From NCBI GenBank assembly GCA_905178155.1, contig CAJINV010000004.1, forward strand, positions 7,460,654 through 7,467,806: DNA of 7,153 nucleotides. Direction: 5' to 3'. The notes beneath the pieces are model-generated. The model ran no database searches and was not told where the DNA came from. It saw only the letters and a program-made list of their open reading frames with translations. Origin of the DNA: Amoebophrya sp. A120. Its lineage: Eukaryota > Protista > Dinoflagellata. A program made the position numbers and the translations under genes. This document shows positions 1,199 to 7,153 of this stretch, one piece after another (the first letter of the stretch is position 1; every line of letters begins with the position of its first letter).

Positions 1199-1305
1199 TA
1201 TCCAGCAAAAAAACAGAGTAAGTGTAACTTTGTAGGAAGAGCAGCATGACAAATTCGTTTTGCACTACAGGAAAAACTTGTCATGCGCAGCTAGTACGTG
1301 AAAAC
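1199..1305. mobile_element. Truncated family A element (left half only)
   Basis: Ungapped match to 3978-4084 (86/107 by manual count), starting exactly at TATCCA. It sits at a different codon from the copy 2 insertion. No right TIR or second TSD (expected TTCCA) found downstream. Confidence 0.85.
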
Positions 1306-1680: not shown

Positions 1681-2716
1681 GGTAGTTTGTCTCCTGAGAA
1701 GGCACGAACAAACACGTCGATGATGAGTGATCAGCTTCACTGCAATGATAAACGTCGAAAACGCTTTCAAAGAGATAAAGAACAAAACAAGGCACAATTA
1801 TAATTCGACCAAGCAGCAAAGAACAGAACAATACCGAACGACCAGAAAAGAAAGCTGCACAAGATCTTCTGTGTACAGAACAGGGCATCGGAAAAGTTAA
1901 TCGAGGAAAGGAAAAAAAAAACGCGGGAGGCAGTCCGCGATCGTTTTCCGGAAACTCAAGATCTGTTGAGAGTAGGTGGATCAGATTCAGAAAGGATGAA
2001 ATCTACAGCAAAACAAAACAAAGAAGTTCCCGAAGGATGAACCGTCGTTGACGAGCACGTGATTCGTTTTTGATTCGAACAAAGAAGGCCGCGCGCAACA
2101 CTACTTGCGAAGAACCCTGGGTGGTGGGCCTAAAAATACGGAGAGCGAAGTAACTCTACGTACGTTAATCGTCTTTGAAAGCTGGTATCTAGTGCGTTTT
2201 TGGTCTTTCGACGGCACAGGTAAAAACCTTCTCAAGACTGCCGACTGCTACATTGGGAATAAAGGATGTATTTGTATTCAGTGGCAGACACTACTACAGG
2301 CACGACGTGTTTCAAAATAGCTTCTTCTTCTTCTTGCCTTGGTCTTGAAATCGCTCGAAATTATTAAATGAAACAGTAGTTGCAGTGCCAAGAATGAGGT
2401 CTGCAACAGACACAATTTTTGCATTTTGATTTATTTTTATACGAATGAGAATCTTACAAAAAACAATTAGGGGTTGAAAGAATAAGAAAAACAAGTTTCT
2501 TCACATGCATAGTAGTACACCGTACTGTACTTCGATGGTACCTCTAGTATGTGAAAGCATGAAACTCTTGTGTATAAATTTGCTCAAAGAAAAGTAGAAA
2601 TTGCTCCACAGGATAGGTCGGTGTCCGCAAACCAAATCCTGAACAAGAATGCGCGAAAACAAAATCAAATGTTGACTTTTCTAGTACAACATATACAAGA
2701 TAAAAATATTTTTGCT

Positions 2717-4947
2717 TTACACCTCCGTGTTGAACAGGCGGTTCCCCGTATCAGTCCCACCCACCCCATTGTACTGGTTCTCCGAAACGCGAAGGGTGAA
2801 CAAATACACTTTTACAACCAACCACGCTGAAGTAGACCGTGCGTTTTCCTCCTGAATCTGCTTGATCTGTTTCCTGAATTCGCTGTTTTCGTTCAAAGTC
2901 GCCGCCTGCACGACGCCGGTCAGCATCAGGATTCTGATTTCGTTTCTAGTCCTCGTGTTTTCGTTTTGTTGGTTTGTCGAGTTGAAGTTGTCAGGGAAAG
3001 TAGAACTTTTGTTTTTGTTTTTGTTTCTCTCCACCTCCACGATCACCTCCTTCGCCTTCTCCGCGGCAATGGTCTTGATGAATTCCACCATCGTCGCCCC
3101 GCTGTTCACCACCGGATCCACCAAAAGAAACACGCCCGCCCCACTGATGACATTGTGCTTATCCGGCAACAGATCGCCGGCTTGGTGCGGGAAGTCGATG
3201 CGCGCGGCGCTCATCTTGCCGAGGATGTCATAAACCCCGTCTGCCATGTACTTACCGGCTCGCATAATGGCGAGAATGCTGGCTTTTTTCAACATCCGGC
3301 TGTTTTGACCAAAGGAGAAGTCCGGTTCGAAACCTCCACCGGGACAAAGATGCCCCTGTTTGAAAATGATGTAAAGGTTTTTCTTGAAGAGCGCGATTTT
3401 TAAATGTTTGTTTCCAGTACTGCAAGACGAGGTCGACCTACATGGAGGCAGGTGATCATGATAGTACTGCATTCGGTGAGAGGAAATTTCGACTGGCTCA
3501 AGGCCTGCTGGTGGTCGTCCCAAGAACTACTATATGCACAATGCGACAAAAAAGAAACTTCCTTACGTACCTGCACATGCTTGATATCGCACATTCCCAA
3601 AAACTCGTCCCCAAAACAATCCAGCATCTTCAGCGCCAAGTATTTCCCGACCTCGGTGTGGATAGCGCCCAAGGCCGGCCCGGCGTTTGCCGCGTCGCGC
3701 ATCTTCGTCGCCAAAATTTGGCTGGAAGGCAGGGTTGACCCGTCAAAACACAGCGCGAAGAAATCGAAATCTTGGCTCGTCATAGCTGGTGGACCACGAC
3801 CGGAAGTGGAACAATTACGGACAGTCTTACTCCACAAAGCTTTAGAAGAAGATGCACACGTCTTCGCCGATATAATTCCGGTCCGGGAACGCTGCATGGC
3901 AGGCTCAACGAATTTTTCTCCTAGACTGTCTTTATTCGCCGCGGTCGCACGAGGACCAGTGCTGCTGGCACGAAAAATATCCAAGAAAAAAACATTGTAG
4001 GTGTAACTTTTTTGGAGGAACAGCATTACAAATTTGTCTGGCATGACAGCAAAAACCTGTCAAGCGCAAATAGTACGCGAAAACGCCCTTTAATGGACCC
4101 TACGACGCACGCCAAGCATGACAGACGCAATCATCTTGCATGTTGCGCACCACAAATTTACACTAACAACGTTTTTTTCTTGGATAGAAAACGCGAGATG
4201 GAGATTCTTGATCGCCTGGGACGAGGACCGTCGGACCATTCTTAACCGTGCTGGGAGGTGACGGCGCCGGACCACGTATGCAATGCAAATACGTCTGGGT
4301 CTGGAAATTTGTGATGCAAGGAAGGGAATATTAAGCACCCTGTAATGCGCTCCCCAGCATGACAAGTTTTTCCGTAGTTCAGAGTTGCGTACTCCGCATG
4401 AGAAACTGCGTTTTTGCATGACAGACAAGGGGAACTCTTCGTTGACACGCAATACAGAGTTTAGAGTCATGCCAGACTAGCATGACAAATCTCGGAATCT
4501 CCCAGACCCAGACATATTTGCAGTTCATACCACGGTTTTCAATACCACAGTGGAACACCAGGTCCCGGACTTCGTCCATGGTCGCTTCTGGTAGAAATAA
4601 GGACAAGGCCACCGCATTCGTCGCAGTTTTCATCTTCGAGGATGTTGACAGGAGATCCAGCTTGCGCACACGAAAACGAGCACTCATCTCATCCAGAAGC
4701 TGCTGATGTCCACAAGAACTGCGCTTCAATTCCGCTGCGAAGCTCTTCGACGTGCCAACCAGCGCGTAGCCGTAGTCCGCTCCCCGCAACATGGGAATAT
4801 CCAGCGGACTGTCCCCAAACGCCAAAATTCGACAGCCAGGGCTTCTCTGCCGCAAATGCTCCACAACTTTCAGCTTCGCCGCAGGATTGATAATGACGGG
4901 AGTATTTCGTTCGGGGTCGAGGCCCAAGACAACCACGAAGGGACAAA
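2717..4947 (-). CDS. HAD-like hydrolase / UPRTase-domain fusion protein, copy 2 (5'-partial; predicted exons >4947..4535, 4276..4187, 3972..3571, 3355..2717; element junctions can slide within the TSDs)
   Basis: Collinear with copy 3 with the same motifs. ORFs 4379..4936, 3400..4044 and 2717..3523 plus a 90-nt segment at 4187-4276 (RGPAPSPPSTVKNGPTVLVPGDQESPSRVF) join into one stop-free frame if 4277-4534, 3973-4186 and 3356-3570 are removed. If the two elements are not spliced, this copy is a pseudogene. Confidence 0.7.
3356..3570 (-). other. Canonical phase-0 GT-AG spliceosomal intron, 215 nt (copy 2)
   Basis: Minus strand CAG|GTACGT ... ATTTTCAAACAG|GGG. Removal joins two different frames into HVQ-GH. 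Read-through meets a stop at 3400-3402. Confidence 0.85.
3978..4186. mobile_element. Non-autonomous TIR element (MITE-like / putative introner), family A, 209 bp
   Basis: Left end TATCCAAGAAAAAAACATTGTAGGTGTAACTTT (3978-4010) versus reverse complement of right end TATCCAAGAAAAAAACGTTGTTAGTGTAAATTT (4154-4186): 29/33 identical, outer 16 perfect. Flanks AAAAA (3973-3977) and GAAAA (4187-4191) form a 5-bp TSD with one mismatch. Empty site in copy 3 at about 6666-6670. Confidence 0.9.
4277..4529. mobile_element. Non-autonomous TIR element (MITE-like / putative introner), family B, 253 bp
   Basis: Left end TATGCAATGCAAATACGTCTGGGTCTGG versus reverse complement of right end TATGAACTGCAAATATGTCTGGGTCTGG: 25/28 identical, extendable by about 16 bp after a 9-bp gap. 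Perfect 5-bp TSD CCACG (4272-4276 and 4530-4534). Empty site CCGCG in copy 3 at 6742-6746. Confidence 0.92.
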
Positions 4948-4948
4948 N
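4948..4948. other. Single N, probable scaffold join between two contigs
   Basis: The N separates mid-CDS sequence from mid-spacer sequence with no continuity. Confidence 0.85.
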
Positions 4949-5475
4949 TGGTCTTTCGACGGCACAGGTAAAAACCTTCTCAAGACTGCCGACTGCTACA
5001 TTGGGAATAAAGGATGTATTTGTATTCAGTGGCAGACACTACTACAGGCACGACGTGTTTCAAAATAGCTTCTTCTTCTTCTTGCCTTGGTCTTGAAATC
5101 GCTCGAAATTATTAAATGAAACAGTAGTTGCAGTGCCAAGAATGAGGTCTGCAACAGACACAATTTTTGCATTTTGATTTATTTTCATACGAATGAGAAT
5201 CTTACAAAAACAATTAGGGGTTGAAAGAATAAGAAAAACAAGTTTCTTCACATGCATAGTAGTACACCGTACTGTACTTCGATGGTACCTAGGTGTACTT
5301 CTAGTATGTGAAAGCATGAAACTCTTGTGTATAAATTTGTTCAAAGAAAAGTAGAAATTGCTCCACAGGATAGGGCGGTTTCCGCAAACCAAATCCTGAA
5401 CAAGAATGCGCGAAAACAAAATCACATGTTGACTTTTCTAGTACATACTTTATACAAGATACAAATATTTTTGCT

Positions 5476-7153
5476 TTACACCTCCGTGTTGAACAGGCGG
5501 TTCCCCGTATCAGTCCCACCCACCCCCTTGTACTGGTTCTCCGAAACGCGAAGGGTGAACAAATACACTTTTACAACCAACCGCGCAGAGGTAGACCGGG
5601 CGCTTTCCTCCTGAATCTGCCTGATTTGTTTCCTGAATTCGCTGTTTTCGTTCAAGATCGCCGCCTGCACGACGCCGGTCAGCATCAGGATTCTGATTTC
5701 ATCTCTGGTCGTGTTTTGTTGGTTTGTCGCGTTGAAGTTGTCAGGGATACTTTTCGCCTTCTCCGCGGCAATGGTCTTGATGAACTCCACCATCGTGGCC
5801 CCGCTGTTCACCACCGGATCCACCAAAAGAAACACGCCCGCCCCACTGATGACACTGTGCTTATCCGGCAAGAGATCGCCGGCTTTGTGCGGGAAGTCGA
5901 TGCGCGCGGCGTTCGTCTTGCCAAGGATGTCATAAACCCCGTCTGCCATGTACTTACCGGCTCGCATGATGGCGAGAATGCTGGCTTTTTTCAACATCCG
6001 GCTGTTTTGACCAAAGGAGAAGTCCGGTTGGAAACCTCCACCGGGACAAAGATGCCCCTGTTTGAAAATGTTCAGGTTTTTGAAGGGCACGATTCAATGT
6101 TTGTTATTTCCACTGCAGGAGGTCGACCTACATGGAGGCTGCAGGTGATCATGATACTGCACTCGCTGAGAGGAAATTTCCGCTGGCTCAAGGCCTGCTG
6201 GTGGTGGTCGTCCCAAGAACTAGTATAAACACAATGCGACAAAAAAGAAACTTCCTTACGTGGTACCTGCACATGCTTGATATCGCACATTCCCAAAAAC
6301 TCGTCCCCAAACCAATCCAGCATCTTCAGCGCCAAGTATTTCCCGACCTCGGTGTGGACTGCGCCCAATGCCGGCCCGGCGTTTGCCGCGTCGCGCATCT
6401 TCGTCGCTAGAATTTGGCTGGAAGGCAGGGCTGACCCGTCAAAACACAGCGCGAAGAAATCGAAATCTTGGCTGGTCATAGCTGGTGGACGACCGGAAGT
6501 GGAACAATTACGGACAGTCTTACTCAACAAAGCTTTAGAAGAAGACGCACACGTCTTCGCCGATATAATTCCGGTCCGGGAACGCTGCATGGCAGGCTCA
6601 ACGAATTTTTCTCTTAGACTGTCTTTATTCGCCGCGGTCGCACGAGGACCAGTGCTGCTGGCAAGAAAAACGCGAGACTCCTGATCGCCTGGGACGAGGA
6701 CCGTCGGACCATTCTTAACAGTGGGAGACGACCGCGCCGGACCGCGGTTTTCAATACCACAGTGGAACACGAGGTCCCGGACTTCGTCCATGGTCGCTTC
6801 TGGTAGAAAGGACAAGGCGACTGCATTCGTCGCAGTTTTCATCTTCGAGGATGTTGACAGGAGATCCAGCTTGCGCACACGAGGACGAGCATTCCTCTCC
6901 AGAAGCTGCTGATGTCCACAAGAACTGCGCTTCAATTCCGGTGCGAAGCTCTTCGACGTGCCAACCAGCGCGTAGCCGTACTCCGCTCCCCGCAACATGG
7001 GAATATCCAGCGGACTGTCCCCAAACGCCACAATTCGACAGCCAGGGCTTCTCTGCCGCAAATGCTCCACAACTTTCAGCTTCGCCGCAGGATTGATAAT
7101 GACGGGAGTATTTCGTTCGGGGTCGAGGCCCAAGACAACCACGAAGGGACAAA
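5476..7153 (-). CDS. HAD-like hydrolase / uracil phosphoribosyltransferase-domain fusion protein, copy 3 (5'-partial; exons >7153..6267 and 6057..5476)
   Basis: ORFs 6072..7142 and 5476..6090 join in frame across a GT-AG intron (...KHVQ|GHLC...). HAD motif III/IV-like AAKLKVV...AFGDSPLDIPML (GDSPLD at 7005-7022). UPRTase-like motifs LATKMRDA, ILAIMRAG, PRPP-binding loop LLVDPVVNSGAT (DPVVNSGAT at 5794-5820) and C-terminal GGTDTGNRLFNT. Stop TAA at 5476-5478. Frame is open to the window edge. Confidence 0.85.
6058..6266 (-). other. Canonical phase-0 GT-AG spliceosomal intron, 209 nt (copy 3)
   Basis: Minus strand CAG|GTACCA ... ATTTTCAAACAG|GGG, at the same position as in copy 2. Splice dinucleotides are conserved while the interior has many indels. 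Confidence 0.85.

What the first reader, a model, noticed from the sequence alone, without database searches (positions are those of the whole stretch)
3973..4534. Two TIR/TSD elements inside one coding exon that appear to act as non-canonical introns (introners), with the empty allele in the same window
Seen: both elements are absent from copy 3, have ~30-bp TIRs and 5-bp TSDs, and break the frame if retained (A plus TSD is 214 nt, a frameshift; B has an in-frame stop at 4379-4381). Removing element plus one TSD restores the copy 3 frame, and the rest of copy 2 has no stop or frameshift. No slide across the TSDs gives GT-AG: B offers CG-TA, GT-AC, TG-CG, GG-GT, GT-TG, TA-GG or AT-GT, and A offers e.g. 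GT-AT or TA-TT. Established: introners are transposon-derived introns, and IR/DR-flanked non-canonical ones are described in Amoebophrya. Inference: TIR pairing in the pre-mRNA could juxtapose the exon ends and guide a structure-dependent splicing route that coexists with the GT-AG intron about 400 bp away.
Basis: partly seen in the sequence, partly recalled or inferred. Interest (0 to 1): 0.85.

Follow-up and report, generated by a model that had tools for sequence, protein, structure and literature searches.

The report
Hairpin transposons spliced without GT-AG ends
Two small hairpin-shaped mobile elements interrupt a coding exon and are cleanly missing from assembled contigs of likely RNA origin from that gene copy, although they lack the usual GT-AG intron ends; they are likely members of the introner elements already described in the marine parasite Amoebophrya.

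Summary
Confirmed, but a known system. Elements A (3978-4186) and B (4277-4529) run TAT...ATA, have about 30-nt terminal inverted repeats and 5-bp target duplications, and are absent from the paralogous copy 3. A 1039-nt contig from an RNA-like run matches copy 2 with no difference and skips the GT-AG intron, A+5 nt and B+5 nt, leaving 513 open codons. Both joints recur in two more runs of that sample and A in a second sample; two DNA-like runs show neither. All four element ends fit the published Amoebophrya A120 introner motif, so the host and membership are inferred from motif. Hairpin-guided splicing remains inferred and was already proposed (PMC7789003). The scan noted similar elements in other genomes. 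Side finding: 17 of 29 non-coding indels between the copies are 3 nt, and 21 of all 23 three-nt indels read xyNxy, like hairpin-type excision scars that add one codon.

The parts
3978..4186 (.). Element A, 209 nt, TAT...ATA, 33-nt terminal inverted repeats; removed from copy-2 contigs together with 5 flanking nt (214 nt)
3973..3977 (.). Target-site repeat of A, left (AAAAA; the version found in the spliced contigs and in copy 3)
4187..4191 (.). Target-site repeat of A, right (GAAAA; the G at 4187 is removed with the element)
   Evidence: joint 3973->4188
4192..4271 (-). Short exon left between the two elements (contig piece 4188-4270)
   Evidence: table 8
4272..4276 (.). Target-site repeat of B, left (CCACG)
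4277..4529 (.). Element B, 253 nt, TAT...ATA, 28-29-nt terminal inverted repeats; removed with 5 flanking nt (258 nt); in-frame stop at 4379-4381 if retained
4530..4534 (.). Target-site repeat of B, right (CCACG)
3356..3570 (-). Canonical GT-AG intron, 215 nt, spliced in the same contigs; differs from its copy-3 counterpart (6058-6266) by ten 3-nt indels
2717..4947 (-). Host gene copy 2 (3' part): HAD-like plus uracil phosphoribosyltransferase fusion; cut off by the assembly join
4948..4948 (.). Single N, assembly join between copy 2 and the flank of copy 3
5476..7153 (-). Host gene copy 3, without the elements; empty sites at 6666-6670 (AAAAA) and 6742-6746 (CCGCG), single target copy and no scar
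   Evidence: empty-site joints in X1, X2, X5, X6
1199..1305 (.). One-armed relative of element A (81% over 107 nt) at the breakpoint of the truncated copy 1; no second arm found in 1190-1920

Best explanation
A and B are short terminal-inverted-repeat elements with 5-bp target duplications that are missing, with exactly one target repeat, from copy-2 contigs of likely RNA origin, so they likely act as non-canonical introns of the Amoebophrya introner type, with the cut likely set by the stem that their paired ends are predicted to form. Shown: anatomy, high copy number, empty paralog, exact removal, open frame, no GT-AG option, and for A a 5' cut 1 to 5 nt upstream of the stem (the C next to the 5' TAT is removed). 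Inferred: they inserted as non-autonomous DNA transposons after copies 2 and 3 diverged; the palindromic ends bring the exon ends together in either orientation; a modified spliceosome (U1 reported missing in Amoebophrya) or another activity cuts at a fixed distance from the stem, within the target repeats, whatever their sequence. My preferred register is a 5' cut 4 nt upstream of the stem, which makes every 3' end T-A-N (A: TT...AT, B: GT...AC); it is one of five registers that the data allow. Odds: real splicing about 0.9; membership in the A120-type family about 0.85; stem-set cut about 0.6; the particular register about 0.3.
For: X3 record 10 and X4 record 13: 1039 nt, 0 other letters and 0 gaps against copy 2, in four pieces that skip 215, 214 and 258 nt; copy 3 differs from copy 2 next to both junctions, so these paths are not copy 3. 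X5 shows both joints, X6 the A joint (33 letters on the short side). X3-X6 have no cover inside the GT-AG intron, and X4-X6 none at 1775-2155 where X2 has cover, as expected of RNA. X1 and X2 cover the intron, show the copy-3 empty-site joints, and give depth 0 for the three splice joints. In X3 the exon bins 3908-3966 and 4203-4261 hold only the spliced contig's depth (48.6), so no contig with a retained end is assembled at three of the four junctions. Element bins reach depths of 1.7e4-2.0e5 against about 50 in flanks, with loose ends at 3978, 4186 and 4529. A metagenome scan with A's ends gave 15 loci; 12 from one record series are relatives of A (63-95% identical), 3 are AT-rich chance hits. 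Of 35 listed TAT...ATA elements in those loci, 25 have a perfect 5-bp repeat and 10 one mismatch. Removing element+5 gave a longer open flank than the better of +4/+6 in 21 of 36, tied in 3, lost in 12 (Wilcoxon p 0.009), and 21 of 36 junctions lie in the longest restored frame. A-family copies restore frames in both orientations (2 sense, 3 antisense including the window's). No register shows a common dinucleotide pair across 21 elements; a GT/GC-AG cut is possible for 2 of 36. Motif TAT+7 nt+AAA, given for A120 in PMC7789003, is met at 4 of 4 ends here and 62 of 72 ends in the related loci.
Against: The RNA label of X3-X6 is the tool's guess; they are assembled contigs, not reads, from one study, and the B joint is seen in one sample only (X6 shows depth 0 for it). 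Contigs drop rare forms, so neither splicing efficiency nor the absence of the joined form from DNA is strictly shown. Reverse-transcriptase skipping across a stem flanked by direct repeats would give the same joint. No call names the organism; the host is inferred from the motif. In 12 of 36 related elements the +5 removal did worse than a control, and the element list was picked by eye (nested and unmatched pairs dropped; L011 dropped as a duplicate of L007). Nothing here tests whether the stem is required.
Confidence: 0.85

Rival explanations
1. The joints are reverse-transcriptase template switches: the enzyme skips a stable stem and lands on the second direct repeat, giving a false intron; real transcripts keep the elements.
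For: The anatomy is the one known (recalled) to cause such artefacts: strong stems and 4-6 letters fitting both sides of each joint. Only cDNA-derived contigs were seen.
Against: The skipped form carries the full exon depth in X3 with no retained-end contig at three of four junctions; both elements are skipped in one path; retention would stop a conserved frame at codon 174 or 188 of 513; related loci carry three or four such elements in single long frames.
Confidence: 0.06
2. The contigs come from an unassembled genomic copy that has copy-2 flanks but no elements.
For: The locus is a partly collapsed repeat with an N join; contig assembly drops variants and some contigs mix letters of both copies.
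Against: X1 and X2 show depth 0 for both joints while keeping the copy-3 empty-site joints; the depth of X1 record 8 (65.4) fits two copies (61-73) better than three (95-114), a rough test.
Confidence: 0.05
3. The elements are spliced, but by a spliceosome with relaxed end recognition that reads linear signals (for example the element's terminal T-A as part of a TAN 3' site), with the stem being only a relic of transposition.
For: One register gives a 3' end A+N for all 21 elements, like the AG-A(N) ends reported for Fritillaria (passage in PMC7789003); most spliceosome proteins are reported present.
Against: No 5' dinucleotide is shared in that register; A-family copies restore frames in both orientations, so any linear signal must lie in the palindromic ends themselves. 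This rival overlaps with the best explanation and differs only in the recognition step.
Confidence: 0.3
4. Ordinary MITEs that inactivated a paralog.
For: Classic MITE anatomy and high copy number; an intact empty copy exists.
Against: Copy-2 contigs are present in RNA-like runs, lack both elements and keep an open frame.
Confidence: 0.03

Closest known systems
Introner elements (IEs) / non-canonical introns of Amoebophrya sp. A120 (Farhat et al. 2021, PMC7789003; read: passages, sections 10 and 16, supplement passages without figures)
   Same: RNA-supported non-GT-AG introns with terminal inverted repeats starting TAT + 7 nt + AAA, 3-5-nt direct repeats at the boundaries, about 240 nt long (here 214 and 258; mean 242 for 36 related elements), repeated, mixed with canonical introns in one gene, hairpin model for splicing.
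   Different: Nothing fundamental. Added here: a filled/empty paralog pair that polarises the event as a gain, a uniform 5-bp duplication, a target mismatch that excludes one cut register, and short scars that suggest excision, whereas that paper favours copy-paste and found no transposase in A120.
Amoebophrya A120 introners classed as TIR DNA transposons (Gozashti et al. 2025, PMC12130899; read: passages, one supplement file searched)
   Same: TIR-derived introns in large numbers, many per gene.
   Different: The two element ends searched were not found in supplement file 3, which lists genes and hits, not sequences; family number not assigned.
MITE-derived non-canonical introns of Fritillaria borealis (via review PMC11282704, section 6)
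   Same: TIR and TSD, non-canonical ends, species-specific positions.
   Different: Fritillaria keeps preferred ends (AG-AC, AG-AT); here no 5' dinucleotide is shared.
Nonconventional introns of euglenids (via review PMC11282704, section 6)
   Same: Stem that closes the two ends, TSD-like repeats, no GT-AG.
   Different: Different terminal motif; circular excision products are reported there and untested here.
Introners of Micromonas and Aureococcus (via PMC11282704 and PMC7789003 passages)
   Same: MITE insertions that become introns, cut within the TSD.
   Different: Those carry or co-opt GT/GC and AG; these do not.
Hairpin-type excision footprints of Ac/Ds (PMC5873905, passages) - for the side finding only
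   Same: Repair scars centred on the complement of the base next to the break.
   Different: Here the scars are nearly all +3 or +6 and the element that left them is not identified.

Membership tests
Amoebophrya A120-type introner element | Removed from RNA with non-GT-AG ends | tested here: met
   Joints 3973->4188 and 4270->4529 in RNA-like contigs, none of 5 (A) or 7 (B) cuts GT-AG; RNA label is a guess supported by intron and intergenic gaps
Amoebophrya A120-type introner element | Inverted repeat of at least 8-20 nt pairing the two intron ends | tested here: met
   A: first 16 nt perfect, 33 nt at 88%; B: 29 nt at 90%
Amoebophrya A120-type introner element | Direct repeat of 3-5 nt overlapping the exon/intron boundaries | tested here: met
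   5-bp repeats; joints slide over 4 and 6 letters
Amoebophrya A120-type introner element | IR motif TAT + 7 nt + at least three A | tested here: met
   4 of 4 ends plus the half element at 1199; motif wording
Amoebophrya A120-type introner element | Repeated family across the genome | tested here: met
   Depth 1.7e4-2.0e5 against about 50; 12 related loci
Amoebophrya A120-type introner element | Host organism is Amoebophrya | tested here: inconclusive
   No genome held, run names coded, no named close protein hit; inferred from the motif
Amoebophrya A120-type introner element | Identity with one of the published numbered IE families | not testable with these tools
   Element ends not found in the supplement text searched; figures and sequence files not visible
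MITE (non-autonomous TIR DNA transposon) | Short, non-coding, TIR, fixed-length TSD, high copy number | tested here: met
   209 and 253 nt; 5-bp repeat perfect in 25 of 35 and one mismatch in 10 of 35 related elements
MITE (non-autonomous TIR DNA transposon) | Cognate autonomous element with the same ends | not tested
   No genome held; superfamily not assigned
Canonical U2 introner (Micromonas/Aureococcus type) | GT or GC donor and AG acceptor | tested here: not met
U12 AT-AC intron | AT...AC ends | tested here: not met
   Not among the options for A or B
Euglenid nonconventional intron | Circular, non-lariat excision product | not testable with these tools
   Needs RNA experiments; works-like comparison only

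The most novel reading that the evidence does not exclude
These introners are the visible half of an active cut-and-paste cycle that is frame-safe at both levels: while inserted they are spliced out exactly, in either orientation, by a cut measured from their stem; when they (or a sister family) excise from DNA, hairpin repair leaves a +3 or +6 scar that adds one or two codons. The scars are as frequent as point changes in the spliced intron (10 against 13), so this would be a mutational engine for the rapid protein evolution reported in Amoebophrya. Not shown: that the scars come from these 5-bp-TSD elements (no +4 or +5 scar among 40 indels in the window, one +4 in a related element).
Probability: 0.3. 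Interest if true: 0.72.

Novelty: already known. Interest (0 to 1): 0.36.

Why it matters
The elements themselves are two more of a published class of tens of thousands. Their value is practical: how such introns are cut is an open question, and direct repeats normally hide the cut site. Mismatched target repeats (A here; 10 of 35 related elements) are natural markers that can fix the register from existing RNA data, and a filled/empty paralog pair expressed in the same samples is a ready assay locus. If the +3/+6 scars are excision footprints, they point to an unidentified hairpin-forming transposase and to a source of single-amino-acid insertions; four paper searches found no report of this for Amoebophrya.

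Tried and rejected
No whole genome is held and the related records are not held for search, so no genome-wide count was made. No RNA holder is listed on record. The viral-contig hit L001 and loci L009, L012, L013 are AT-rich chance matches (57-59% to A, no target repeat) and were dropped. A 3-bp target repeat with variable terminal bases was considered and rejected: related elements show 5-bp repeats. Selection for AG or GT in the target repeats: no signal in 21 elements. A 'two-base repeat plus P nucleotide' reading of the scars was considered by hand and fits about half the cases, so it was dropped. The CCA-CCA at the empty site of the copy-1 half element is not a scar by eye: fungal homologs have the same length there. 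The complement rule gave no information in six events from related loci. L007 against L011 was not informative. Three protein searches gave no named close relative. Earlier-scan look-ups by place and by sequence were blank. No structure or complex job was run; none bears on the question.

Full report
Layout. The window holds three copies of the 3' part of one minus-strand gene. Copy 1 (837-1198) is truncated, copy 2 (2717-4947) ends at a single N (4948), and copy 3 (5476-7153) follows its own 3' flank behind that join. The protein is a HAD-like plus uracil phosphoribosyltransferase fusion (Pfam UPRTase E 1.9e-13, weak HAD hits). Its 21 longer homologs are 29-40% identical over most of the query, and those that carry an organism name are ascomycete proteins. 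No genome is held for the window.

Observation. Copy 2 has two insertions against copy 3, of 214 and 258 nt. A is 3978-4186 and B is 4277-4529; both start TAT and end ATA, with flanking repeats AAAAA/GAAAA and CCACG/CCACG. Copy 3 has one target copy at each site and no scar. The arms are real: 26 of 30 matches against at most 22 in 100 resamples, and folding z-scores of -6.3 and -6.4 against +0.75 for the nearby GT-AG intron. A and B share only weak internal similarity and a repeated GCATGAC word. With both elements and the GT-AG intron removed, copy 2 is open for 513 codons; keeping A stops it at codon 174, keeping B at codon 188.

Are they spliced? Eleven runs were listed, none of the holders on record as RNA; four are guessed RNA. 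I laid 7 of 11. X3 record 10 is a 1039-nt contig with 0 other letters and 0 gaps against copy 2, in pieces 3222-3354, 3570-3973, 4188-4270 and 4529-4947. X4 gives the same contig and X5 both joints; these three are one sample. X6, a second sample of the same study, has the intron joint and the A joint (depth 3.9, 33 letters on the short side) but not the B joint. Copy 3 differs from copy 2 within a few bases of both junctions, so the joined paths cannot be copy 3. That X3-X6 are RNA is supported by zero cover inside the GT-AG intron and, for X4-X6, at 1775-2155, where X2 has cover. DNA-like X1 and X2 (one sample, possibly the window's source) cover the intron, show the copy-3 empty-site joints and give depth 0 for the three splice joints. 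X9 laid no read and is no test. A rough depth count favours two genomic copies over a hidden third, empty one (observed 65.4; expected 61-73 or 95-114). Both copies appear in X4 and X5, so copy 2 is not silent. Limits: contigs, not reads; one study; template switching by reverse transcriptase is not excluded, though in X3 no retained-end contig adds depth at three of four junctions.

Where is the cut? The joint slides over 4 letters for A and 6 for B. On the coding strand A allows CT-TT, TC-TT, TT-TT, TT-AT, TT-TA and B allows AT-GT, TA-GG, GT-TG, GG-GT, TG-CG, GT-AC, CG-TA. None is GT-AG or AT-AC. The message regains the pre-insertion sequence of copy 3 at this site.

Family. Element bins have depths of 1.7e4-2.0e5 against about 50 in X1, with loose ends exactly at 3978, 4186 and 4529. 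A scan with A's ends gave 1 viral-contig hit and 15 metagenome loci; 12 loci of one record series are relatives of A, the other 4 are chance. Those loci are packed with further TAT...ATA elements (26% of bases in the 11 loci kept). Of 35 listed, 25 have a perfect 5-bp repeat and 10 one mismatch. Removing element+5 beat the better of +4 and +6 in 21 of 36 cases, tied in 3 and lost in 12 (p 0.009); it lengthened the longest open frame in 8 of 11 loci, for example 191 to 371 codons across four junctions. A-family copies restore frames in both orientations, and no register gives a shared dinucleotide pair in 21 elements. These are frame tests without RNA.

Mechanism. Shown: exact removal of element plus one repeat without canonical ends. 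Inferred: insertion as a non-autonomous DNA transposon; recognition of the palindromic ends, most simply as a stem, with cuts at a fixed distance inside the target repeats. Orientation independence and the lack of sequence preference in the repeats argue against directional internal signals. A weak natural control points the same way: the one-armed A relative at 1199-1305 is kept in a 495-nt X6 contig with no difference (1169-1663, depth 4), but this is one contig with only 30 letters on one side.

Comparison. PMC7789003 (passages and sections 10 and 16 read) describes RNA-supported non-canonical introns in Amoebophrya with inverted repeats, 3-5-nt direct repeats, a mean of 240 nt in A120, an A120 motif of TAT, seven variable bases and at least three A, missing U1, and a hairpin model. 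All four ends here and 62 of 72 in the related loci fit that motif. PMC12130899 (passages) classes many A120 introners as TIR transposons; the review PMC11282704 (passages and section 6) sets them beside Fritillaria and euglenid introns. Every testable defining feature is met; the host is inferred from the motif only, and the family number could not be checked. Earlier notes of this scan report similar elements in two other windows, one naming Prorocentrum (not checked). Verdict on the finding: already known.

Side finding. Small indels between the copies are strongly patterned. In non-coding parts 17 of 29 are 3 nt, under each of three gap settings 17; in the spliced GT-AG intron 10 of 10 are 3 nt, beside 13 substitutions; coding parts have 6 of 11. 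Of 23 three-nt indels 21 read xyNxy against 28% for random deletions (p 3e-10), 16 of them imperfect, unlike slippage. Three of six 6-nt indels read 5-mer, N, 5-mer (3% by chance). N is the complement of a flanking base in 17 of 18 imperfect cases, but 14 are expected; of 6 informative sites 5 fit (p 0.018), and two further events both fit (7 of 8, p 0.003). In related element L006 two such +3 events are insertions against all 7 other close copies. This resembles hairpin-repair footprints described for Ac/Ds (PMC5873905, passages). Against a link to A/B-type elements: their 5-bp repeats would be expected (recalled) to leave +4 or +5, and none occurs among 40 indels here; A-family copies themselves rarely carry indels. 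Searches found no paper on this in Amoebophrya; earlier scan notes describe a related but different scar in other genomes.

Scores. Observation confirmed; interpretation supported; novelty already known; interest 0.36, lifted by the register marker and the scar pattern.

Noticed in passing
window 3356-3570 versus 6058-6266; 1-836 versus 1913-2716: Indels between the gene copies are mostly +3 or +6 near-duplications (xyNxy) with N often the complement of a flanking base, even in the spliced intron (10 of 10); likely hairpin-type repair scars, source unknown.
   Followed up: partly
window 1199-1305 and 1306-1774: Copy 1 looks like a fusion: an unrelated 5' frame (ATG at 1680, no Pfam hit) that has another genomic copy, half of an A-like element, then the UPRTase 3' end. 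One X6 contig covers 1169-1663 unbroken, so the one-armed element is kept there.
   Followed up: partly
window 2717-4947 and 5476-7153: The host gene is a HAD-UPRTase fusion whose named homologs are all ascomycete proteins (29-40% identity); the fungal proteins also carry an N-terminal kinase-like domain. Patchy distribution or transfer not tested.
   Followed up: no
window 2201-2716 versus 4949-5475: The 3' flanks of copies 2 and 3 are more alike (7 substitutions in 515) than their exons or intron, which suggests recent conversion or a collapsed assembly next to the N join.
   Followed up: no
window 2163-2733: X4 and X5 contigs cover about 550 nt beyond the stop codon of copy 2, a likely long 3' UTR.
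   Followed up: no
window 4947 and 7153: Copy 2 at the N join and copy 3 at the window end stop at the same homologous base; the copy-3 frame continues 76 residues beyond the window (P0022).
   Followed up: no
L002-L016 (12 loci of one record series): Many further TAT...ATA families of 156-333 nt, up to six in 3 kb; in 4 cases including window A, a mismatch at the first target position has G directly after ATA.
   Followed up: partly
window 4041, 4116, 4357, 4416, 4472, 4480, 1244, 1286: The word GCATGAC occurs only inside the elements and is shared by A, B and the half element; a candidate transposase-binding or structural motif.
   Followed up: no
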